Source: Acidobacteriota bacterium
GTDB taxonomy: Bacteria; Acidobacteriota; UBA6911
DNA length: 64,000 bases
Assembly (NCBI GenBank): GCA_963664705.1
Contig: OY761556.1
Location: 2,400,001-2,464,000, forward strand
Direction: 5' to 3'
Shown here: piece after piece, positions 12,007 to 22,598 of the stretch
How the letters are laid out: each line of letters begins with the position of its first letter
How positions within the stretch are numbered: position 1 is the first letter of the stretch
The notes under the pieces: model-generated
Told to the model about the DNA's origin: nothing
The model's input: only the letters and a program-made list of their open reading frames with translations
Databases searched by the model: none
Made by a program: the position numbers and the translations under genes

Positions 12007-12356
12007 ATAAGCTTAGAAAAATAGCATACCTGGACACATCAAGCAATCATTAGATACAAAGAAGCCCTCTCGGCCCATTTACGCCTGGGATGCCAATCTG
12101 TACCCACGCCTCGCAGTTCCGAAGGCGCATGTATTTTAGTTATGAATTTCGAAGTCGGACCTGACGTATCCCTAAGGAAACCGGGGAGCATGCCTAGGGC
12201 TGGACAATGAAGGTCAGGACTGATTTTACCTCTGCTCCCAGAAACAGCATGAGAACGCAAGCGTAAGATGCTATGATACTCGGAATTTAGAACACATTCG
12301 GATTTTTGGGGGACTTCGAAGCGTGGGTGCGCACAAGATCCCTCAGGAGGGTGAGG

Positions 12357-13718
12357 ATGAAGAAGACTGTATATTTGACGCTTTTGTTTCTGAGCGCTGC
12401 TATCCTTCTTTCGATCGGTACTTCGATTGACAGCTCTCATGCAGCAGATAGCCCCCAGATTACCGTTGCCTACAGCGGCAATATGATCGCATACATGGAA
12501 CCGTGCGGCTGAGCGGACACGGGAGCACAGCTCGGAGGGCTGTATAAAAAAGCTGCGTATCTGGAACAGTACAGAAAAGACCATGGCGGCCTGGTAATCG
12601 TCGATTCCGGGGACATGTTCAGTGAAGACGAAGAACTGCCTGAGTCCGTTGAAAAATCTGCAAAGCTGAAGGCGGAAACGATCGCCCAGATCTATACAAA
12701 AATCGGGATCGACGCGGTGAACGTCGGCGAACTTGATCTGGTGCTGGGTGTTGAATACCTGAAGGGTCTGGCGAAAAAGCAGAACTTCCCACTTATTTCG
12801 GCCAACATGGTCGACAAAAAAGGGCTGCCTGTTTTCAAACGCTACGTCATCAAGAATGTCAACGGCAAGAATGTCGGTATCTTCGGCATAATCGGCGACA
12901 CTTCTGAGATGACGGCCAAAGTGACCGAGATCACCAAAGGCGCGGTCACGGTGACCGATCCTTTGAAGGCGGCTGAAGCCATCGTCAAAGAACTGAAGGG
13001 CAAAGTGGATTACATGATCGCCCTGACACATCAGGGCACGAATCGTGACTGGGTCATCGCCCGCAGAGTTCAGGGTATCGACCTCGTAGTTGGCGGTCAT
13101 GACAAGCAGAAGACCAAGGATCCTAATGAAGCCGATAAAACCCTGATCGTTCAGGCGGGAGAGAAGAACCAATACCAGGGCATGCTCCAAGTTGCCATGG
13201 ACGGAACGAAGAAATGGACCAACACTCTTCTTCCGATGGGAGACGACATCCCGAGTGATCCCAAAGTTAAACAGATGATCAGCGATTACAATGACAAGGT
13301 CGCCGCTCTGTACGGCGGAACCGGTGAAGCCAAACCGGCCGCAGCCTCAGTAACCCTGAGACTCAGCGTATGCGAACCCTGCCACGCAGATCAGGTTAAG
13401 GCCTGGAAGACATCTCCCCATGCCAAAGCCTATGATACGCTGGTCAAGAAGAATAAGAATTTTGACCCGAAGTGCCTCGCCTGCCATACGACTCGTTTCG
13501 AACAGCCTGATGGCTTCTCCATGAAGACGCAGCAGATGGAACTGGTCAACCTTCAGTGCGAATCCTGCCACGGCTATGCGAAGCAGCATCTTAGCGACGG
13601 CAAGCCGATCCCAACGCCGAAGCCCCCCGTGGCCGTTTGCGTAAAGTGCCACACCGCAGACCGTTGCCCGAACTTTGAGAAGGAGTTCAAGCAGCTGGTG
13701 GAGAAGATCAAGCACTAG
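12357..13718 (+). CDS. Secreted UshA-like selenoprotein fused to a tetraheme c-type cytochrome (Sec at codon 52, TGA 12510-12512)
   Basis: ORFs 12306-12512 and 12615-13718 are in the same frame, separated only by TGA in EPCG*ADTGAQLGGL, and read on through VDSGD. Has a signal peptide, an upstream AGGAGG and four CxxCH motifs (CEPCH, CLACH, CESCH, CVKCH). Confidence 0.82.
12527..12543 (+). promoter_or_regulatory. Putative bacterial SECIS element
   Basis: ACAGCTC-GGA-GGGCTGT hairpin begins 14 nt after the in-frame UGA, with a G-leading apical loop about 22 nt after it. Confidence 0.65.
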
Positions 13719-13750
13719 GGTAAGTCAGGAGTCAGAAGCAAGAAGCAAGA

Positions 13751-13783
13751 AGAGCCAGGGATTTCTCCCTGGCTCTTTTTTTT
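13751..13783 (+). terminator. Rho-independent terminator (possibly bidirectional)
   Basis: AGAGCCAGGGA-TTTC-TCCCTGGCTCT followed by a T run, between convergent genes. Confidence 0.85.
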
Positions 13784-15500: not shown

Positions 15501-16964
15501 ATGATCACAAAAGAAAACCTGTTGCAGATTGTAGGCAATGGTCAGGTGAGCCAGGAGCCCGCTGTCCTGGACGCCTACGCCAGGGATATGAGTTTTGTGA
15601 ACGCCATTAAGCCCCGCTATGTTGTAAAGCCTCAAAACGGTCAAATGGTGCAAAACCTGGTGAAACTGGCCAGCGAGACCGGAACACCCTTAGTCCCGGT
15701 CAGTTCCGGACCTCCGCATTTTCGGGGAGATACCGTCCCGAGTGTTGGAGGCGCAGTCGTCGTAGATCTGAGTGAGATGAAGAAAATCATTTTTGTCGAC
15801 CGCCCGCGCAGAGTCGCAATGGTTGAACCGGGCGTAACATTCGGCGAACTGATACCTGCAGTCGAAAAGGAAAATCTCCGGCTCAACATGCCGCTTCTGC
15901 CAAGAGGTTCGAAGTCTGTTGTGGCCAGCATTCTTGAACGAGAGCCCGTGGTGATGCCCAAATATCAATGGGATATGTCCGATCCATTGGCGTGTGCCGG
16001 TCTGTTCTTCGGCACCGGCGACGAATTCCGCACCGGGCAGGCTGCGGGACCTGGAACCATCGACGAACAATGGGAAGTGGGCGGCCTGCAAAAGGCGCCT
16101 TACGGACCCGGCACCGCATCGCTGCACCGTGTGATTCAGGGTGCACAGGGAACCATGGGAATTGTCACATGGGCTTCCATGCGCTGCGAAATACTCCCCA
16201 ATATTGAAGAAGGGTTCGTGGTTGGTGCCGCAAAGCCGGATGCCTTGCTCGAACTCACACACTGGCTCATACGGCTTCGCATCGTGAATGAATGCTTCAT
16301 ACTGAACAGCAGTGAGCTTGCCGCAATCTTTGCGAAAGATGCCAACGAATTCAAAGCCATTAAAGATACGCTGCCCGCGTGGACGCTCTTTTACGCCATC
16401 GCCGGTTATGAATGTCTGCCTGAAGAAAGAGTCAGCTCTTATATCAGGGACATCACGGATCTAACCCAGAGGTTGAACGTACAGGCACTCAAAGCGGTGG
16501 GAGCCATTTCGGCCAATGAAATTTTAAAAGTCGTAAAAAAGCCATCGGCAGAGCCGTACTGGAAGCTTCGCAATAAAGGTGCCAGCGAGGATATATTCTT
16601 TTTAACCATCAATGACAAGCTTGCGGATCAGATTGCGGTAATGGAGGATCTGGCCGATAAAGCGGGCTATCCCACATATCTCATGGGAACCTATATACAA
16701 CCGGTGGTCCAGGGCACCGGCTGTCATTGCGAATTTACGCTCTTCTACGATCCAACCAACCCCAATGAATACAACCGGGTCAAGGAGCTATCCGTCTCCG
16801 CCACCAAAGCCCTGATGGCCAAGGGGGCCTTTTTCTCGCGGCCTTACGGTGAGAATGCAGGAGTGGTTCTCAACCGCGACGCGGCCAATCTTTCCGTTCT
16901 GAACAAATTCAAAAAGATTTTTGATCCGAACAACATCATGAATCCGGGAAAACTGTGCTTCTAG
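15501..16964 (+). CDS. FAD-binding oxidoreductase (VAO/PCMH/GlcD-like), subunit 1
   Basis: VVDLSEMKKI, VEPGVTFGEL, GAQGTMGIVT and C-terminal FDPNNIMNPGK. Confidence 0.85.
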   Translation: MITKENLLQIVGNGQVSQEPAVLDAYARDMSFVNAIKPRYVVKPQNGQMVQNLVKLASETGTPLVPVSSGPPHFRGDTVPSVGGAVVVDLSEMKKIIFVDRPRRVAMVEPGVTFGELIPAVEKENLRLNMPLLPRGSKSVVASILEREPVVMPKYQWDMSDPLACAGLFFGTGDEFRTGQAAGPGTIDEQWEVGGLQKAPYGPGTASLHRVIQGAQGTMGIVTWASMRCEILPNIEEGFVVGAAKPDALLELTHWLIRLRIVNECFILNSSELAAIFAKDANEFKAIKDTLPAWTLFYAIAGYECLPEERVSSYIRDITDLTQRLNVQALKAVGAISANEILKVVKKPSAEPYWKLRNKGASEDIFFLTINDKLADQIAVMEDLADKAGYPTYLMGTYIQPVVQGTGCHCEFTLFYDPTNPNEYNRVKELSVSATKALMAKGAFFSRPYGENAGVVLNRDAANLSVLNKFKKIFDPNNIMNPGKLCF

Positions 16965-17018
16965 GAGAAGCCGAGCGAAGGAAAATTTACGACCCAAAGG
17001 AGATAGGAGGTTCCCATT

Positions 17019-18284
17019 ATGGGACTGGATCAATATAAAGGCGATATGGATATGTGCTGCCGGTGCTCCACCTGCAAATTCATACCTTTGCAACAGGTGA
17101 CCGGCTTCGAATACGCAAATGTTTGTCCCAGCATCTCAAAATATAACTTTCACAGTTACTCGGCGGGCGGCAGATTGAACATCGGCGCAGCGATGTTGAG
17201 GGATGGATTCACTTACTCAGACAAACTCCTTCACATCGTCTACAACTGCCAGATGTGCGGCGCCTGCGGCGTCTCCTGCAATTACGCAATGGATATGGAA
17301 GTCATACAACCGATCCAGGAATTCAGGATGAAATGCGTGGAGGACGAAAAAACCAATCCTGCACTCGATACCGTGATTGCCGGGCTCCGGAAGCAAGGAT
17401 CCATGGTGCCGCCAACCGGCAAACGTGGAGAATGGGCTGCCGGCCTCAAGATCAAAGATGCGACAAAGGAAAAAGTGGACGTGCTTTATCACGTTGGCTG
17501 CCTTACCAGCTTTGACAAAGACAAGCAAAAGCTGGCCAAGGCTACTGCAAAAATCCTCCAGAAAGCCGGAGTTGACTTCGGTATCGCCGGAGACGCGGAA
17601 CCATGCTGCGGTGGGCGTGCCTACCAGATGGGCTATAAGGAGGATTTTCTAAAACAGGCCCAGAAGAATATGGATCTGATAAAAAAGTCAGGCGCAACGA
17701 CTGTCGTAACATCGTGTGCCGACGGGTATCAGGCTTTTAAGGTCCTCTATGACCAGTACGGACTCAAGGGAGACCTCAAAGTACTCCATATCTCGGAATG
17801 CATCGATAGCCTGATTCAGAGCGGCAAGCTGAAACTCGAAAAGAAAGTGGATCTGTCGGTGACCTACCACGATCCCTGCCGGCTGGGAAGGCTGGGCGAG
17901 CCTTGGATCCATTGGGAGGGGAAAAAGATTCCAGGAGACAGATTCGTCTTTGATCCCCCCAAGACATACCGTAAGGGAACGTATGGCGTATACGATCCCC
18001 CACGTCGTGTTTTGAAAAGCATCCCGGGACTGAAGTTCACCGAGATGACCAGGATCAAGGAATACGCCTGGTGCTGCGGCGCCGGCGGCGGTGTCAACGA
18101 ATCCAATCCCGAATTTGCCAAGTGGACGGCAATGGAAAGAATCGAAGAGGCCGGCTCTACCGGTGCAGAGGCGATTGTTACCGCGTGTCCTTGGTGTGAA
18201 AAGACCTTCAATGAAGCCATTCAGAACAACCGCGGCAGTATGAAGGTCTACGACATTGTCGAACTTGTTGAGCAGGCTCTTTAA
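17019..18284 (+). CDS. Fe-S oxidoreductase, GlpC/HdrD-like (two 4Fe-4S motifs plus two CCG domains)
   Basis: CCRCSTC...CP, CQMCGACGVSC, PCCGG, YHDPC, WCCGAGGG and TACPWC motifs. Confidence 0.88.
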   Translation: MGLDQYKGDMDMCCRCSTCKFIPLQQVTGFEYANVCPSISKYNFHSYSAGGRLNIGAAMLRDGFTYSDKLLHIVYNCQMCGACGVSCNYAMDMEVIQPIQEFRMKCVEDEKTNPALDTVIAGLRKQGSMVPPTGKRGEWAAGLKIKDATKEKVDVLYHVGCLTSFDKDKQKLAKATAKILQKAGVDFGIAGDAEPCCGGRAYQMGYKEDFLKQAQKNMDLIKKSGATTVVTSCADGYQAFKVLYDQYGLKGDLKVLHISECIDSLIQSGKLKLEKKVDLSVTYHDPCRLGRLGEPWIHWEGKKIPGDRFVFDPPKTYRKGTYGVYDPPRRVLKSIPGLKFTEMTRIKEYAWCCGAGGGVNESNPEFAKWTAMERIEEAGSTGAEAIVTACPWCEKTFNEAIQNNRGSMKVYDIVELVEQAL

Positions 18285-18302
18285 TTGGGAGGATAACCAG
18301 TC

Positions 18303-19772
18303 ATGGCATTAGACAAGGACATCTATGCGGCATTCGAAGATATAGTGGGACCGGAAAACATCTGCAATGATCCCGTGATCACGCCTTCGTATCACGCAAC
18401 CGAGTTCGCGGCAGTTGTTCTCCCGAAGAATACAGCCGAGGTACAATCCATCGTCCGGTTGTGCAACAAACTCAAATTGAAATTCCGACCGGTCTGCACG
18501 GGATGGACCGGCACATTCCAGCCGGGAATCGTTTATCTCGATCTGCGGCGTATGAATCGTATCATCGAGATCAACGAAAAGAACATGTACGCCGTTGTGG
18601 AACCCTACGTCATCTCGGCCCAGCTGCAGGCAGAACTGATGAAAAGAGGCCTGCACTTCAATGTGAAGGGCGCGGGAACCAACTGCTCCGCGATGCTGAG
18701 AGGACATGGACACCTTGACCAGAGCACCAGCGGTGACGACCGGAACCACCTTGCCATCGAGTGGGTGACTCCGGAAGGAGACATCGTTCGATCGGGCGCT
18801 CTCGGCTCTTCTGACGAATGGTTCAGCGGCGACGGCCCCGGCCCATCCATACGATCCATTCTCACAAGCGCCGTGCCTCCGGGAGTAACTCCGGGCGTAT
18901 TTACCAAGGCCGCGGTAAAGGTCTATCACTGGCCGGGACCCGCCAAATTCCCCATCCAGGGAGTATCGCCGAATTATTCCCTGAGCGAAATTCCCACCAA
19001 CATGATGGCTCGTTACTACAGCTTCCCTTCTGTCGAGAAGATGTGGCAGGCGGAAATCAAGTTGGGAGAAAATGAAATCGCGTTTGAACTGATGGGATTC
19101 AACATCTCGATGGTTGCAGCCAATATCACAACCAGCAACGAGGAGGAGGAAGCCACCTTCAAACGGATGAACCAGGAGGTACAAGGCCCCGGGTTCTTCA
19201 TCATCCTGGCGGGCAATTCCGCCGCAGACTTCGCCTACAAAAAGCTCGCTCTGGAGCAGATCGTGAGCGAAGCCGGCGGCATATCGCTAAAATCGTGCGA
19301 GGACCCAAGAATAGAGGGAATCCTGATTTGTCAGTGCATTCGCGTCTCGGCTTCCATCCGCGAGACTTTCCGCGCAGGCGGCGCTTTCAGTTCAATCCCG
19401 GTGATGGGCCAGCGCGATCTAACGATCAAATGGGCTATCGGTGCCGGCAAGGCCAAGGAGCCGCTGATCCAGCAGGGCCTCATTGTTGATGATGGTGGCG
19501 CCTTCTTCGGCTGGGGCGTTGAGCAGGGCCATCTCGGAAAAACCGAGATTTTCTGCAAATTCGATCCCCAGAATCTGGAAGCAAAAGCAGCCGTGGAAAA
19601 GTGGAACCAGGAACAGAGTGCGCGCGCATTCAAAGAACGCTACTTTGCTCCGTTGATGAGCCCGACAGAGGAGATAGGGCCCGGTATGTCCAACTATCAC
19701 CTATGGTGGAACAAGATTACCAAAGCTCTCGATCCGAATGGCGTGGTCCCCGCAGCGGGAGCGCTAGTGTAA
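18303..19772 (+). CDS. FAD-binding oxidoreductase (VAO/PCMH/GlcD-like), subunit 2
   Basis: VLPKNTAEVQ, LDLRRMNRI, VVEPYV, EWVTPEG, GDGPGPS and C-terminal LDPNG. Confidence 0.82.
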   Translation: MALDKDIYAAFEDIVGPENICNDPVITPSYHATEFAAVVLPKNTAEVQSIVRLCNKLKLKFRPVCTGWTGTFQPGIVYLDLRRMNRIIEINEKNMYAVVEPYVISAQLQAELMKRGLHFNVKGAGTNCSAMLRGHGHLDQSTSGDDRNHLAIEWVTPEGDIVRSGALGSSDEWFSGDGPGPSIRSILTSAVPPGVTPGVFTKAAVKVYHWPGPAKFPIQGVSPNYSLSEIPTNMMARYYSFPSVEKMWQAEIKLGENEIAFELMGFNISMVAANITTSNEEEEATFKRMNQEVQGPGFFIILAGNSAADFAYKKLALEQIVSEAGGISLKSCEDPRIEGILICQCIRVSASIRETFRAGGAFSSIPVMGQRDLTIKWAIGAGKAKEPLIQQGLIVDDGGAFFGWGVEQGHLGKTEIFCKFDPQNLEAKAAVEKWNQEQSARAFKERYFAPLMSPTEEIGPGMSNYHLWWNKITKALDPNGVVPAAGALV

Positions 19773-19861
19773 CAGTAGTCAGTAGTCAGTAGTCAGTAGT
19801 CAGTGGGCAGTGGATGGAACAAGTGTTCACACTGCCTACTGAATACTGCCTACTGACTACT
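19773..19861. repeat. Heptamer tandem repeat with an inverted copy, forming a hairpin of about 90 nt
   Basis: (CAGTAGT)x4 CAGTGGG CAGTGGA ... ACTGCCT ACTGAAT ACTGCCT ACTGACT ACT, between convergent stop codons. Confidence 0.85.
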
Positions 19862-19870
19862 CGCCAGCCG

Positions 19871-21757
19871 TTAGTTGTTCCAATCCTTTACTAATTCTGA
19901 CAAGCCTAATTCCTCTACTGTCTGCTTTGTCGGCATCCCGGTTTTGATATCCCACCCCATTGCGCTAAAATAGCCTTCCTTCAGGGCCTGAAAGTCAATC
20001 TTCGGCGGAGCACCATTCTGAACAGGCAGCGGCTCCTCTTTCATCCTGGCGGGAAGATCAATCTGATCCGGTGTAATCCCTTCCCTGGCTGTGAAAGCCT
20101 GCCGCAGCGTCAGAATCCTGCGTCCGGTTTTGAGCGCCTCCTCCCAACTCAGATCCCATCCTGTTACGCCGGCAAGCAATTCGGCTACGGCCGGAGGCTG
20201 CGTGTTGACCGCATAGAGAGCGCATAGCCCGGACACATCCATCAATAATTGATAGGCGGCTCCGGTCGAATAGATCATTCCCTTCTTATCGAAATCCGCA
20301 AAAGGACTCAGTTTCGGCACCTGCAGCGCCGGATCAGTTCCGAGCGGAGCTCCGTTCTCGAGCATGCCGATGACCTGGCTGTTCATATGGTGGCCGGGAT
20401 TTGCATCAGCAATAAAGGCAGTTCCTCCCGCCGGGCTCATTCGGGGATCATGGAAAGGCAATCCCTTCCCTCGAACTGCCACCGAGAATCGCTCCGATCC
20501 ACGGCCGATCCGTTCGGCGGCCTTTGTGGGACCATCCGCGAGGACAGCTCCGAATCCCTCTCTCCTGGCTATTTTTTCGGTCAGAGCCACGATGGCTTCC
20601 GCATTCCCCCAGGCTAAATCCAGGCCATCCGTATCCTGCATCCCGATCAGCCCGTTTTCATAGCATTCCATTGCGAACGCGATAACCGTACCGGTAGAAA
20701 TGGTATCAATTCCATACCGGTTGCAGATGTCATTGGCCTTGATCACAGCCTCCTGGTTATCATTCACAAGCAGCGTACCCAGAGCGGCCAGCGTCTCATA
20801 TTCGGGCCGGTGCATCTCGCCGGGGATCGCAAAGGGTCCCTCTTTTTGTTCAATGATGGCGCCGCAACGAATAGGGCAGGCCTGGCAGGCATAGCCGCCT
20901 TTTTTGTACTTATCCATGTTGCCGCTGTCGAGCTTGTTGGCTGTCGGCATGGATTCTGTCCCGGTCAGCCGCCAGTTTTTGACCGGAGAATCCCCGATCG
21001 ATACAAGGAAGCTGACTGCGCCGCCAGTGCCGGCCGCCGTTAGCCCTTTTCCAAACTCGCTGGATTTGATAATGGACAAAAAACGATCCGTGGCTTCGCG
21101 CAGTTTGGCTCGGTCCGCGATGGGTATTTTTTTCGTGCCACCTCTGACGGCGACGGCCTTCAATAACTTGGAACCCATGACGGCGCCAACGCCGCCACGA
21201 GCCGCAATCCGTCCTTTCTCATTTACAATACCCGCGAGCAGTGATTGGGCTTCACCCGCAGGACCGATGGAGGCAACCTTCAATCTGTCGTCACCGATCT
21301 CCCTGCAAATCCTCCCTTCCGTTTCATAGGTATCAAGGCCCCACAATCCGGACGCATCACGAAGTTCCGCCTTTCCGTCCCGAATCAGCAGATACACGGG
21401 CCTGGGGGAAGCTCCCTTGAAAAAAATGGCGTCATACCCGGCTGTCTTCAGTTCAGGCCCGAAGGTGCCCCCCGCATTGGATTCGCACCATGTGCCCGTA
21501 AGTGGGGATTTGGTAACGACACCATATCTTCCGCTTCCGGGCACGGTCGTCCCGGTGAGCGTTCCCACAACAAATCCCAACATATTATCTGTGCCGAGTG
21601 GATCGACTCCGGCTTTCATCTGCTCGTATAAAACTCGGATGCCAAATCCGTAGCCGCCGATAAACTGGCGGCACATCTCCTCCGGCAGATCCATTTCCTG
21701 CATTGAATGTTTACTTAGGTCTACAAAAAGAATTCTCCCCGCATATCCGCAGAGCAT
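19871..21757 (-). CDS. aor: Aldehyde:ferredoxin oxidoreductase (tungsten AOR/WOR family)
   Basis: GYAGRILFVDL, KSPLTG, GAVMGSKLLKAV, CQACPIRC, EYET and DTIS motifs; start ATG 21757 after GGAGG. Confidence 0.92.
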   Translation of the reverse strand: MLCGYAGRILFVDLSKHSMQEMDLPEEMCRQFIGGYGFGIRVLYEQMKAGVDPLGTDNMLGFVVGTLTGTTVPGSGRYGVVTKSPLTGTWCESNAGGTFGPELKTAGYDAIFFKGASPRPVYLLIRDGKAELRDASGLWGLDTYETEGRICREIGDDRLKVASIGPAGEAQSLLAGIVNEKGRIAARGGVGAVMGSKLLKAVAVRGGTKKIPIADRAKLREATDRFLSIIKSSEFGKGLTAAGTGGAVSFLVSIGDSPVKNWRLTGTESMPTANKLDSGNMDKYKKGGYACQACPIRCGAIIEQKEGPFAIPGEMHRPEYETLAALGTLLVNDNQEAVIKANDICNRYGIDTISTGTVIAFAMECYENGLIGMQDTDGLDLAWGNAEAIVALTEKIARREGFGAVLADGPTKAAERIGRGSERFSVAVRGKGLPFHDPRMSPAGGTAFIADANPGHHMNSQVIGMLENGAPLGTDPALQVPKLSPFADFDKKGMIYSTGAAYQLLMDVSGLCALYAVNTQPPAVAELLAGVTGWDLSWEEALKTGRRILTLRQAFTAREGITPDQIDLPARMKEEPLPVQNGAPPKIDFQALKEGYFSAMGWDIKTGMPTKQTVEELGLSELVKDWNN

Positions 21758-21851
21758 ACGACCTCCAAAAGAATGACCGATACCTGGACAGACTGCGACG
21801 CCATGGATCAATGATGGTAGGCAGTATACAGGGAAGCTGTATAATGCCGCA

Positions 21852-22598
21852 ATGCGATTGATGATTAGCGTAGTGTCGGCAGTGGAGGCAGCCAGGGCAC
21901 GCAGCGGCGGAGCTTCGCTTCTGGATGTGAAGAATCCAGAGGAGGGGTCCCTGGGTGCCCAGTGCCCCGAGGTAATCCGCGAGATAAGGAATGTTGCGGG
22001 GGCAGGGGCCGATCTCAGTGTTGCAATTGGCGATATGCCCAACCTTCCTGGAACAGCAGCGCTGGCAGCGCTTGGCGCCGCCGCCTGCGGCGCGGACTAC
22101 ATTAAGGTCGGACTCCATGGCGTGCACAACTATATCGATGCGATCCGCCTTCTGCGCGGAATAAAGGAATCGGTCGTCGGATATAAAACAAAGGTCATTG
22201 CCGCCGCCTATGCGGACTATCGCAATATAGGATCCCTTGATCCGGGCTGCCTTCCGCTCGTTGCTGAGTCTGTGGGGGTCGATGGATACTTGATTGATAC
22301 GGCGGTCAAGGATGGAAGGACGCTGTTGGACTATTATTCAGCGGAGGATCTGGCAATCCTTGCCAACGAGGCGCATGCCCGGGGCCTTCTTTTTGGAGCG
22401 GCGGGAGCGCTTCGGAAAGAGCATCTGCCTCTGTTGCAGGCTGCGGGTGTCGATGTTGCCGGACTTCGCTCAGCAGTATGCAATAACGGCATCCGTACCG
22501 GCACGTTGGATTCCGGTCGCGTCCGCGAACTGATTCAGATGTATGGCGGCTTCTTTGCCGCCAGCTCCACGAATTTGCACAAAGCCGATCTAAGGTGA
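21852..22598 (+). CDS. mfnB: (5-formylfuran-3-yl)methyl phosphate synthase (DUF556, Orf22-like)
   Basis: DVKNPEEGSLGA, DYIKVG and IDTAVKDG motifs. Confidence 0.92.
   Translation: MRLMISVVSAVEAARARSGGASLLDVKNPEEGSLGAQCPEVIREIRNVAGAGADLSVAIGDMPNLPGTAALAALGAAACGADYIKVGLHGVHNYIDAIRLLRGIKESVVGYKTKVIAAAYADYRNIGSLDPGCLPLVAESVGVDGYLIDTAVKDGRTLLDYYSAEDLAILANEAHARGLLFGAAGALRKEHLPLLQAAGVDVAGLRSAVCNNGIRTGTLDSGRVRELIQMYGGFFAASSTNLHKADLR

What the first reader, a model, noticed from the sequence alone, without database searches (positions are those of the whole stretch)
12357..13718. Hidden selenoprotein: UshA-like CxU domain fused to a tetraheme cytochrome c
Seen: the ORF track splits this gene, but one in-frame TGA (12510-12512) in EPCG-U-ADTGAQLGGL links a signal-peptide ORF to the rest with no other stop, giving 453 aa. 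A hairpin with a G-leading loop follows at SECIS distance (12527-12543). The metallophosphoesterase motifs are eroded: motif I DxH is replaced by the C-G-U segment, GNHE becomes GELD and GHxH becomes GHD, while DSGD is kept. Four CxxCH motifs lie at the C-terminus. Known: UshA-like CxU selenoproteins have been predicted, but their function is not established. Inference: a periplasmic redox enzyme with a Cys/Sec pair wired to hemes, possibly acting on sulfur or selenium oxyanions or thiols, rather than a nucleotidase.
Basis: partly seen in the sequence, partly recalled or inferred. Interest (0 to 1): 0.8.

Follow-up and report, generated by a model that had tools for sequence, protein, structure and literature searches.

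The report
Known UshA-like tetrahaem selenoprotein gene
An apparent stop codon inside this bacterial gene very likely encodes selenocysteine, giving one predicted-exported four-haem protein of an already catalogued family of unknown function; neighbouring genes of its relatives suggest it likely handles disulfide bonds in the cell envelope rather than cutting nucleotides.

Summary
In detail: one in-frame TGA (12510-12512), 453 aa, four CxxCH motifs and a hairpin at 12527-12543. Selenocysteine is very likely. The genome has two sets of selA/B/C/D, relatives carry TGA or Cys there, and the hairpin follows the TGA (44 of 50 against 2 of 36). The protein passes NCBIfam NF041198 (UshA-like PCGU), whose model already spans the haem domain, so the fusion is not new. 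This scan found the family on three other genomes before.

Added here: the haem domain has the cytochrome c554 fold with three conserved distal His for four haems, so haem 2 is predicted open. It covaries with the UshA-like domain (K105-D370). The nucleotidase metal site is lost in most members. In 40 of 180 family loci a DsbA-like, thioredoxin-like, MauE or DUF1573 gene is adjacent, and fusions exist. Best reading (0.42): a periplasmic haem-linked thiol-disulfide oxidoreductase. Against it: 39 of those 40 loci are Cys-type, this gene stands alone, and it does not replace DsbB/VKOR/MauE (33 of 37 against 235 of 264 genomes have one). An MccSep-like polysulfide or selenite reductase is the main rival (0.25).

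The parts
12357..13718 (+). Gene for a 453-aa UshA-like (seleno)protein with a c554-type tetrahaem domain (NF041198)
12345..12350 (+). Shine-Dalgarno-like AGGAGG before the ATG
   Evidence: sequence
12357..12443 (+). Predicted signal peptide, residues 1-29 (basic N-terminus, hydrophobic core, SHA/AD); judged by eye, no predictor run
   Evidence: kept in full-length Cys homologues
12504..12512 (+). C50-G51-U52 motif; TGA at 12510-12512
12527..12543 (+). SECIS-like hairpin; loop G lies 22 nt after the TGA
12450..13310 (+). 5'-nucleotidase-fold domain. D-x-H and the catalytic His are lost (N42, I44, L126); putative second-metal ligands D86, E125, H225, H248 are kept in this clade
13371..13385 (+). 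Haem 1 motif CEPCH
13473..13487 (+). Haem 2 motif CLACH; predicted to lack a conserved distal His, as in c554
13557..13571 (+). Haem 3 motif CESCH
13638..13652 (+). Haem 4 motif CVKCH
13419..13715 (+). Span holding the three conserved distal-His candidates H355 (13419), H411 (13587) and H453 (13713), and the clade-specific C437 (13665)
13750..13783 (.). Inverted repeat with T-runs on both sides, a likely bidirectional terminator between this gene and the convergent MFS gene

Best explanation
The gene has one in-frame TGA that is very likely read as selenocysteine, giving a predicted periplasmic protein that likely works as a haem-linked thiol-disulfide oxidoreductase. A C50-G-U52 pair on a nucleotidase-fold scaffold that has lost most of its hydrolase site would exchange two electrons with protein dithiols or disulfides of the envelope (DsbA-, thioredoxin- or DUF1573-type partners). 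It would pass them one at a time through the predicted open haem 2 and three likely bis-His haems to or from a respiratory partner. Shown: the sequence, the family membership, the Sec machinery, the conservation pattern and the neighbour counts. Predicted: export, the c554 fold, haem ligation and domain docking. Inferred: the chemistry, the partners and the direction of electron flow. The Sec reading by itself has a confidence of about 0.97; the number below is for the mechanism.
For: Sec: two selA, two selB, two selD and two tRNA-Sec genes with UCA anticodons. 81 of 180 family loci have TGA and 99 have Cys. The hairpin tracks the TGA. Not a hydrolase family-wide: D-x-H is intact in 6 of 162 loci, the catalytic His in 8 of 162, and all four second-metal ligands in 47 of 162. 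Haem domain: best match c554, Z 10.9, rmsd 2.6, 119 residues aligned, next hit Z 4.8. Only three His outside the CxxCH motifs are conserved: H355 in 144, H411 in 142 and H453 in 116 of 144. Haem 2 is the open active-site haem in OcwA and is called the active site in c554 (10.1101/641308, passages). Docking: whole-chain pTM 0.93. K105-D370, three residues before the haem 2 motif, is the top inter-domain coupling: z 7.7, z 8.6 without the close clade, shuffled maxima 3.6 and 5.5. Context: 40 of 180 loci have a same-strand neighbour from the thiol-redox set (19 DUF1573, 10 DsbA-like, 6 thioredoxin/TlpA-like, 5 MauE), against about 18 such genes in roughly 6,300 in this genome. Three DsbA fusions and three DUF1573 fusions were found among 31 long representatives scanned out of 150 listed. 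A CGC motif is the active site of the disulfide generator MauE (10.64898/2026.03.05.709764, parts 1-2 of 4).
Against: 39 of the 40 loci with a thiol-redox neighbour are Cys-type, and this gene is monocistronic beside housekeeping genes. The associations are clustered on the tree: 2-3 changes per neighbour kind, with well-supported branches forcing only 1 each, so there are 4 to 9 independent events, not 40. The function of DUF1573 is itself unknown. The family does not stand in for known generators: 33 of 37 carrier genomes against 235 of 264 others have DsbB, VKOR or MauE, and this genome has a dsbA-dsbA-mauE cluster and a DsbD. 18 Acidobacteriota loci encode a haem-less form with no c554-type gene within about 5 kb. 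Couplings that would put the C-G-U loop itself near a haem are weak: Y46-Q400 at z about 5 lies inside the shuffled range. This clade keeps a possible single-metal site.
Confidence: 0.42

Rival explanations
1. MccSep-like reductase of small sulfur or selenium species (polysulfide, selenite, persulfides). U52 attacks the substrate, and a Cys at haem 2 (C50, or C437 in this clade) resolves the adduct with electrons from the haems.
For: MccSep is a periplasmic multihaem selenoenzyme with a His/Cys haem 2 and a nearby Sec that reduces polysulfide and selenite (10.1101/2025.11.18.688581, parts 1-3 of 6). The haem profile hits MccSep weakly (E 5e-4). Haem 2 is predicted open. C437 is present in 24 of 25 Sec members of the close clade and absent from all 10 members of the sub-branch that changed to Cys. 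The fold is shared with the thiosulfohydrolase SoxB.
Against: No MccSep family (NF040886) hit at E 0.01. No sulfur-respiration gene recurs among the neighbours scanned. The family also occurs in Nitrospinaceae, SAR324, Planctomycetota and Armatimonadota, which are not known as sulfur respirers (own knowledge). The C437 link is one evolutionary event, distant Sec members lack it, and 2 of 5 Desulfobacterota Cys members keep it.
Confidence: 0.25
2. A metal-dependent hydrolase or metal/ligand-binding sensor with a changed active site, in which C50 and U52 bind metal or form a regulatory disulfide and the haems set the redox state.
For: This protein keeps D86, E125, H225 and H248, which covary as one unit (z 5.6-14). 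The closest structures are 5'-nucleotidases.
Against: The site is kept whole in only 47 of 162 loci, and 91 keep at most one ligand. The catalytic His is Leu here. The nucleotide-binding C-terminal domain is replaced by haems. Scores are far below the UshA (48.9 against 600) and SoxB (87.5 against 550) cut-offs.
Confidence: 0.13
3. A detoxifying haem enzyme (peroxide, NO, hydroxylamine) or plain electron carrier, in which the open haem 2 binds the substrate and C-G-U serves only as a two-electron store.
For: c554 fold with a predicted open haem 2. c554 binds NO according to a reference title in PMC6967387.
Against: Haem-less forms keep C-G-U, which points to the thiol pair as the core function. 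The same title says c554 lacks NO reductase activity.
Confidence: 0.12
4. The TGA is a real stop or an assembly error, so the gene is broken or only the 367-aa tail is made.
For: Gene callers give the 367-aa form. No independent reads or protein data cover the site.
Against: The TGA sits at the same codon in dozens of genomes and alternates only with Cys codons. The tail would lack the signal peptide needed for haem attachment. The Sec machinery is complete.
Confidence: 0.02

Closest known systems
NCBIfam NF041198 UshA_like_PCGU, 'UshA-like (seleno)protein' (COG0737 UshA-like, CxU; listed in PMC2398784, PMC9312934 and PMC13188914, passages seen)
   Same: Passes the cut-off (338.2 against 275). 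Same PCGU motif. The model's positions 349-517 cover the haem domain.
   Different: Nothing defining. This clade places its hairpin 22 nt after the TGA (26-29 nt in distant clades), keeps a possible single-metal site and has an extra Cys437. The passages seen give no function and do not mention the haems.
MccSep (ExtKL, NF040886) polysulfide reductase of Geobacter sulfurreducens
   Same: Periplasmic multihaem protein with Sec and Cys; haem 2 lacks a distal His; Sec and Cys forms both occur.
   Different: Five haems and an Ig-like domain there; four haems and a nucleotidase fold here. Cys and Sec are far apart in sequence there and form C-x-U here. No family hit.
Cytochrome c554 of Nitrosomonas europaea (1bvb)
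   Same: Fold, four haems and matching His positions.
   Different: About 20 fewer residues between the haem 4 His and the terminal His (21 against 41). That c554's haem 2 lid lies in this stretch is recalled. Fused to a C-x-U domain. Scores 37 against the cut-off of 400.
5'-nucleotidase UshA/CD73 and thiosulfohydrolase SoxB
   Same: N-terminal calcineurin-like fold, TM about 0.59 of the query.
   Different: Motif I, the catalytic His and the substrate-binding domain are lost; far below the cut-offs.
MauE, DsbB and VKOR disulfide generators
   Same: MauE uses a CGC active site and is the upstream neighbour in 5 Desulfobacterota loci.
   Different: Those are quinone-linked membrane helical bundles; this is a soluble haem protein that co-occurs with them rather than replacing them.

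Membership tests
NF041198 UshA-like (seleno)protein | HMM score above the curated cut-off of 275 | tested here: met
   338.2 bits; 330.5 on DNA
NF041198 UshA-like (seleno)protein | PCG[U/C] motif, with Cys homologues | tested here: met
NF041198 UshA-like (seleno)protein | C-terminal haem domain covered by the model | tested here: met
   model 349-517 matches at 129 bits
Bacterial selenoprotein | selA, selB, selC and selD in the genome | tested here: met
   two of each
Bacterial selenoprotein | SECIS-like hairpin with a G-leading loop just after the UGA | tested here: met
   44 of 50 against 2 of 36; no compensatory changes within the close clade; the distance rule is recalled and bSECISearch was not run
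Bacterial selenoprotein | Selenium found in the protein | not testable with these tools
   needs 75Se or MS
UshA 5'-nucleotidase (NF007109) | Score above 600; D-x-H, GNH and GHxH/Q motifs; nucleotide-binding C-terminal domain | tested here: not met
   48.9 bits; N42/I44/L126; no PF02872 hit
SoxB thiosulfohydrolase (TIGR04486) | Score above 550 | tested here: not met
   87.5 bits
[quoted passage not shown] | Score above 140; CxxU motif | tested here: not met
   36.6 bits; the motif here is CxU
MccSep/ExtKL (NF040886) | Family HMM hit and five haems | tested here: not met
   not among the 17 families at E 0.01; four CxxCH motifs
MccSep/ExtKL (NF040886) | His/Cys haem 2 with Sec beside it | tested here: inconclusive
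   no conserved fourth distal His; model coordinates could not be read; loop couplings weak
Cytochrome c554 fold | Structural match over the whole domain | tested here: met
   Z 10.9, rmsd 2.6, 119 aligned
Stand-in for DsbB/VKOR/MauE | Present mainly where these generators are missing | tested here: not met
   33 of 37 against 235 of 264 genomes carry one

The most novel reading that the evidence does not exclude
This family is a widespread soluble periplasmic enzyme that links protein disulfide chemistry directly to c-type haems through a C-G-C/U loop at an open c554-type haem. That would be a quinone-independent branch of the Dsb network, working with DsbA-like, thioredoxin-like and DUF1573 partners in many little-studied phyla, and a function for a selenoprotein family listed without one since 2008.
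Probability: 0.25. Interest if true: 0.75.

Novelty: new member of a known kind. Interest (0 to 1): 0.33.

Why it matters
As a gene, this is an annotation repair. Callers cut it at the UGA: 110 of the 120 best database hits lack the N-terminus. The family has been listed since 2008 with no function in the passages read. The open haem 2, the lost metal site and the repeated links to DsbA, thioredoxin, MauE and DUF1573 genes give a specific hypothesis that can be tested on natural Cys homologues without any Sec expression system. If right, it adds a haem-coupled route to bacterial envelope disulfide chemistry.

Tried and rejected
(1) Stand-in for DsbB/VKOR: suggested by their absence here and rejected. 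The genome has MauE. Over 301 genomes of the phylum, DsbB or VKOR occurs in 12 of 37 carriers against 124 of 264 others, MauE in 29 of 37 against 177 of 264, DUF1573 in 21 of 37 against 135 of 264, and any generator in 33 of 37 against 235 of 264. Non-carriers were defined at E 1e-30 and may hide distant members; kin are not independent. G024, flagged unpublished, enters only the MauE and DUF1573 background tallies.
(2) C437 as a general partner of Sec: 103 of 110 truncated hits have it and 0 of 9 natural Cys hits do, but this is one event on the tree.
(3) Base-pair covariation in the hairpin: none in 23 distinct close sequences.
(4) Reads: no RNA holder listed; run X5 did not span the TGA, and X6 gave no reads.
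(5) No two-domain complex prediction with haems was obtained and model coordinates could not be read, so the distance from C-G-U to the haems stays open.
(6) Literature: searches found only the catalogue tables for this family. BSepDB's main text has no mention. No usable source for UshA or c554 residue roles was found, so those roles are recalled. The NCBIfam free-text comment, subscription papers and preprint supplements were not visible and may already describe the haem domain or a function.
(7) The ESM Atlas returned only uncharacterised c554/metallophosphoesterase clusters.
(8) The neighbour scan picked the longest same-strand ORF, and many picks in GC-rich loci were shadow ORFs. The DUF1573, DsbA and thioredoxin profiles were built from 3 to 11 seeds taken from these same loci, so counts are approximate.

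Full report
Observation. Window 12357-13718 (+) reads as 453 aa with one internal TGA at codon 52; the standard caller sees only a 367-aa tail. The N-terminus looks like a signal peptide (judged by eye). Four CxxCH motifs lie at residues 339-432. The gene is monocistronic: it diverges from a TPR-yceD-plsX-acpP-etfBA cluster and ends at a two-way terminator-like repeat facing an MFS gene. The upstream cluster is conserved in 10 to 18 of 60 related loci. The genome is one 6.9-Mb contig. A protein from a same-genus genome is identical to one in a record titled Acidobacteriota, so I treat the phylum as Acidobacteriota.

Is the TGA selenocysteine? Very likely. The genome has two selA, two selB, two selD (one with its own TGA) and two tRNA-Sec genes, and cytochrome c assembly genes. 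In 90 distinct motif rows read from DNA the codon was TGA in 51 and TGC/TGT in 39, never TGG. One of the 39 was a mis-hit whose true site is TGA. In the larger set, 81 of 180 loci have TGA and 99 have Cys; 14 further loci with profile hits lacked the motif or scored low and were dropped. One database protein shows Trp (P0007); I infer a caller that read TGA as Trp, but its DNA was not seen. The hairpin is modest alone and shows no compensatory changes among 23 close sequences. It is present after 44 of 50 TGA codons and 2 of 36 Cys codons, at 22 nt in this clade and 26-29 nt, on different codons, in distant clades; G+C content is equal in the two groups. Contigs from one sample, possibly the source, agree with the window; no independent run spans the site.

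Is it known? Yes. The protein scores 338.2 against a cut-off of 275 on NCBIfam NF041198, the UshA-like (seleno)protein. The 519-position model also matches the haem domain (positions 349-517), so the fusion is built into the family. The family is tabulated as a predicted CxU selenoprotein in PMC2398784 (76 Sec and 92 Cys sequences), PMC9312934 and PMC13188914 (passages only); these passages give no function. Three earlier follow-ups in this scan reached the same assignment on other genomes. The family is broad: 37 of 301 sampled genomes of the phylum carry the haem-fused form and 17 more a haem-less form, and relatives occur in Desulfobacterota, Nitrospirota, Nitrospinota, SAR324, Planctomycetota, Armatimonadota and others.

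Anatomy. The AlphaFold model is confident over the whole chain (pLDDT 95, pTM 0.93), and its best matches are 5'-nucleotidases. The hydrolase site is eroded. Among 162 gap-free loci, D-x-H is intact in 6, the catalytic His in 8, and the four second-metal ligands (D86, E125, H225, H248 here) in 47; 91 keep at most one (ligand roles recalled). These four residues covary as a block, so a single-metal site is optional and is kept in this clade. The GG motif is nearly invariant; C-x-C/U was a selection criterion, so its invariance is partly by construction. The haem domain, folded alone, matches cytochrome c554 over its full length (Z 10.9, next 4.8; model 4-123 to c554 6-179). Three His outside the CxxCH motifs are conserved (H355 in 144, H411 in 142, H453 in 116 of 144, with Cys in 17). 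By alignment to c554 this leaves haem 2 without a His, as described for OcwA, where haem 2 is open and aligned with the active-site haem 2 of c554 (10.1101/641308, passages). M389 or C437 could fill the site in this clade only. Mean-field covariation on 424 sequences recovers sheet and metal-site contacts. It ranks K105-D370, next to the haem 2 motif, as the top inter-domain pair (z 7.7; 8.6 in 274 distant sequences; shuffled maxima 3.6 and 5.5). Pairs involving the C-G-U loop (Y46-Q400, P49-E402) are within noise. Docking of the haem 2 segment on the UshA-like domain is therefore supported, but nearness of U52 to a haem is not shown.

Context. Of 180 family loci (136 and 131 with 2.5 kb of flank upstream and downstream), 19 have a DUF1573 gene just upstream, 16 of which showed a C-x-C-like motif in the matched stretch. 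Ten have a DsbA-like gene just downstream, 6 a thioredoxin/TlpA-like gene and 5 a MauE gene, all on the same strand. Eight close relatives have an FKBP isomerase upstream. Among 31 long representatives scanned, three are fused to DsbA-like domains and three to DUF1573; others carry TPR or LysM domains. Such genes make up about 0.3% of this genome. The links fall on 4 to 9 independent branches. MauE was shown to replace DsbB through a CGC motif (10.64898/2026.03.05.709764, parts 1-2 of 4). Other recurring neighbours are envelope and housekeeping genes such as ruvX-mltG, dciA, lptD and lytic transglycosylases; no sulfur-respiration gene recurred. Against this reading, 39 of the 40 loci are Cys-type. 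The family also does not substitute for DsbB, VKOR or MauE across 301 genomes (33 of 37 against 235 of 264; G024, unpublished, is only in background tallies). This genome lacks DsbB and VKOR but has dsbA-dsbA-mauE and a DsbD. Eighteen haem-less loci have no c554-type gene nearby.

Mechanism. The best reading (0.42) is a periplasmic thiol-disulfide oxidoreductase: C50/U52 exchange electrons with envelope protein thiols and relay them through haem 2 to the other haems. The direction is unknown. The main rival (0.25) is MccSep-like reduction of polysulfide or selenite (10.1101/2025.11.18.688581, parts 1-3 of 6). It is attractive because of the open haem 2 and C437, but C437 tracks Sec through one event only and the protein is not in that family. 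A metal-dependent hydrolase or sensor (0.13), a detoxifying haem enzyme (0.12) and a broken gene (0.02) follow.

Verdict. A real and very probably recoded selenoprotein gene, and an ordinary member of a catalogued family that this scan had already met three times. The added value is a testable functional lead. I found no paper linking this family to disulfide chemistry, with the limits of that library. Interest 0.33.

Noticed in passing
G000:C1 3072623-3078309, plus 3461774, 3657373, 2046792 and 6559014: Two complete Sec machineries on one contig: a selB-selA-selD-selC cluster and a second, scattered set whose selD has its own TGA.
   Followed up: no
L003 1327-2679 (G000:C1 about 6756400-6757750): A stand-alone c554-type tetrahaem gene, homologous to this haem domain, followed by a DUF1573 gene with an in-frame TGA in a U-x-C motif. 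The same pair occurs in L066. It may be a sister module of haems plus a thiol pair.
   Followed up: partly
L083 5731-11335: Three tandem paralogues (Cys, Sec, Cys) in an Eisenbacteria contig, with a TlpA-like gene between the first two.
   Followed up: partly
P0125, P0152, P0163: Proteins of about 1,200 aa: an UshA-like domain with C-x-C, a DsbA-like CxxC domain, a Cys-rich linker, a second UshA-like domain and four haems. Good targets for testing the disulfide hypothesis.
   Followed up: partly
L166-L183: Haem-less UshA-like forms (14 C-G-U, 4 Cys) in Acidobacteriota, several beside ruvX-mltG or dciA like the haem-fused forms.
   Followed up: partly
L074 and L077: Close relatives whose haem domain lies in another frame; frameshift or assembly error not resolved.
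   Followed up: no
G000:C1 3933655-3937049 (L264, L266): A TlpA-like gene, two DsbA-like genes and a mauE gene with CGC, close together.
   Followed up: partly
window 15501-22042: Two FAD-linked oxidase genes around a CCG/4Fe-4S gene, converging on an aldehyde ferredoxin oxidoreductase.
   Followed up: no
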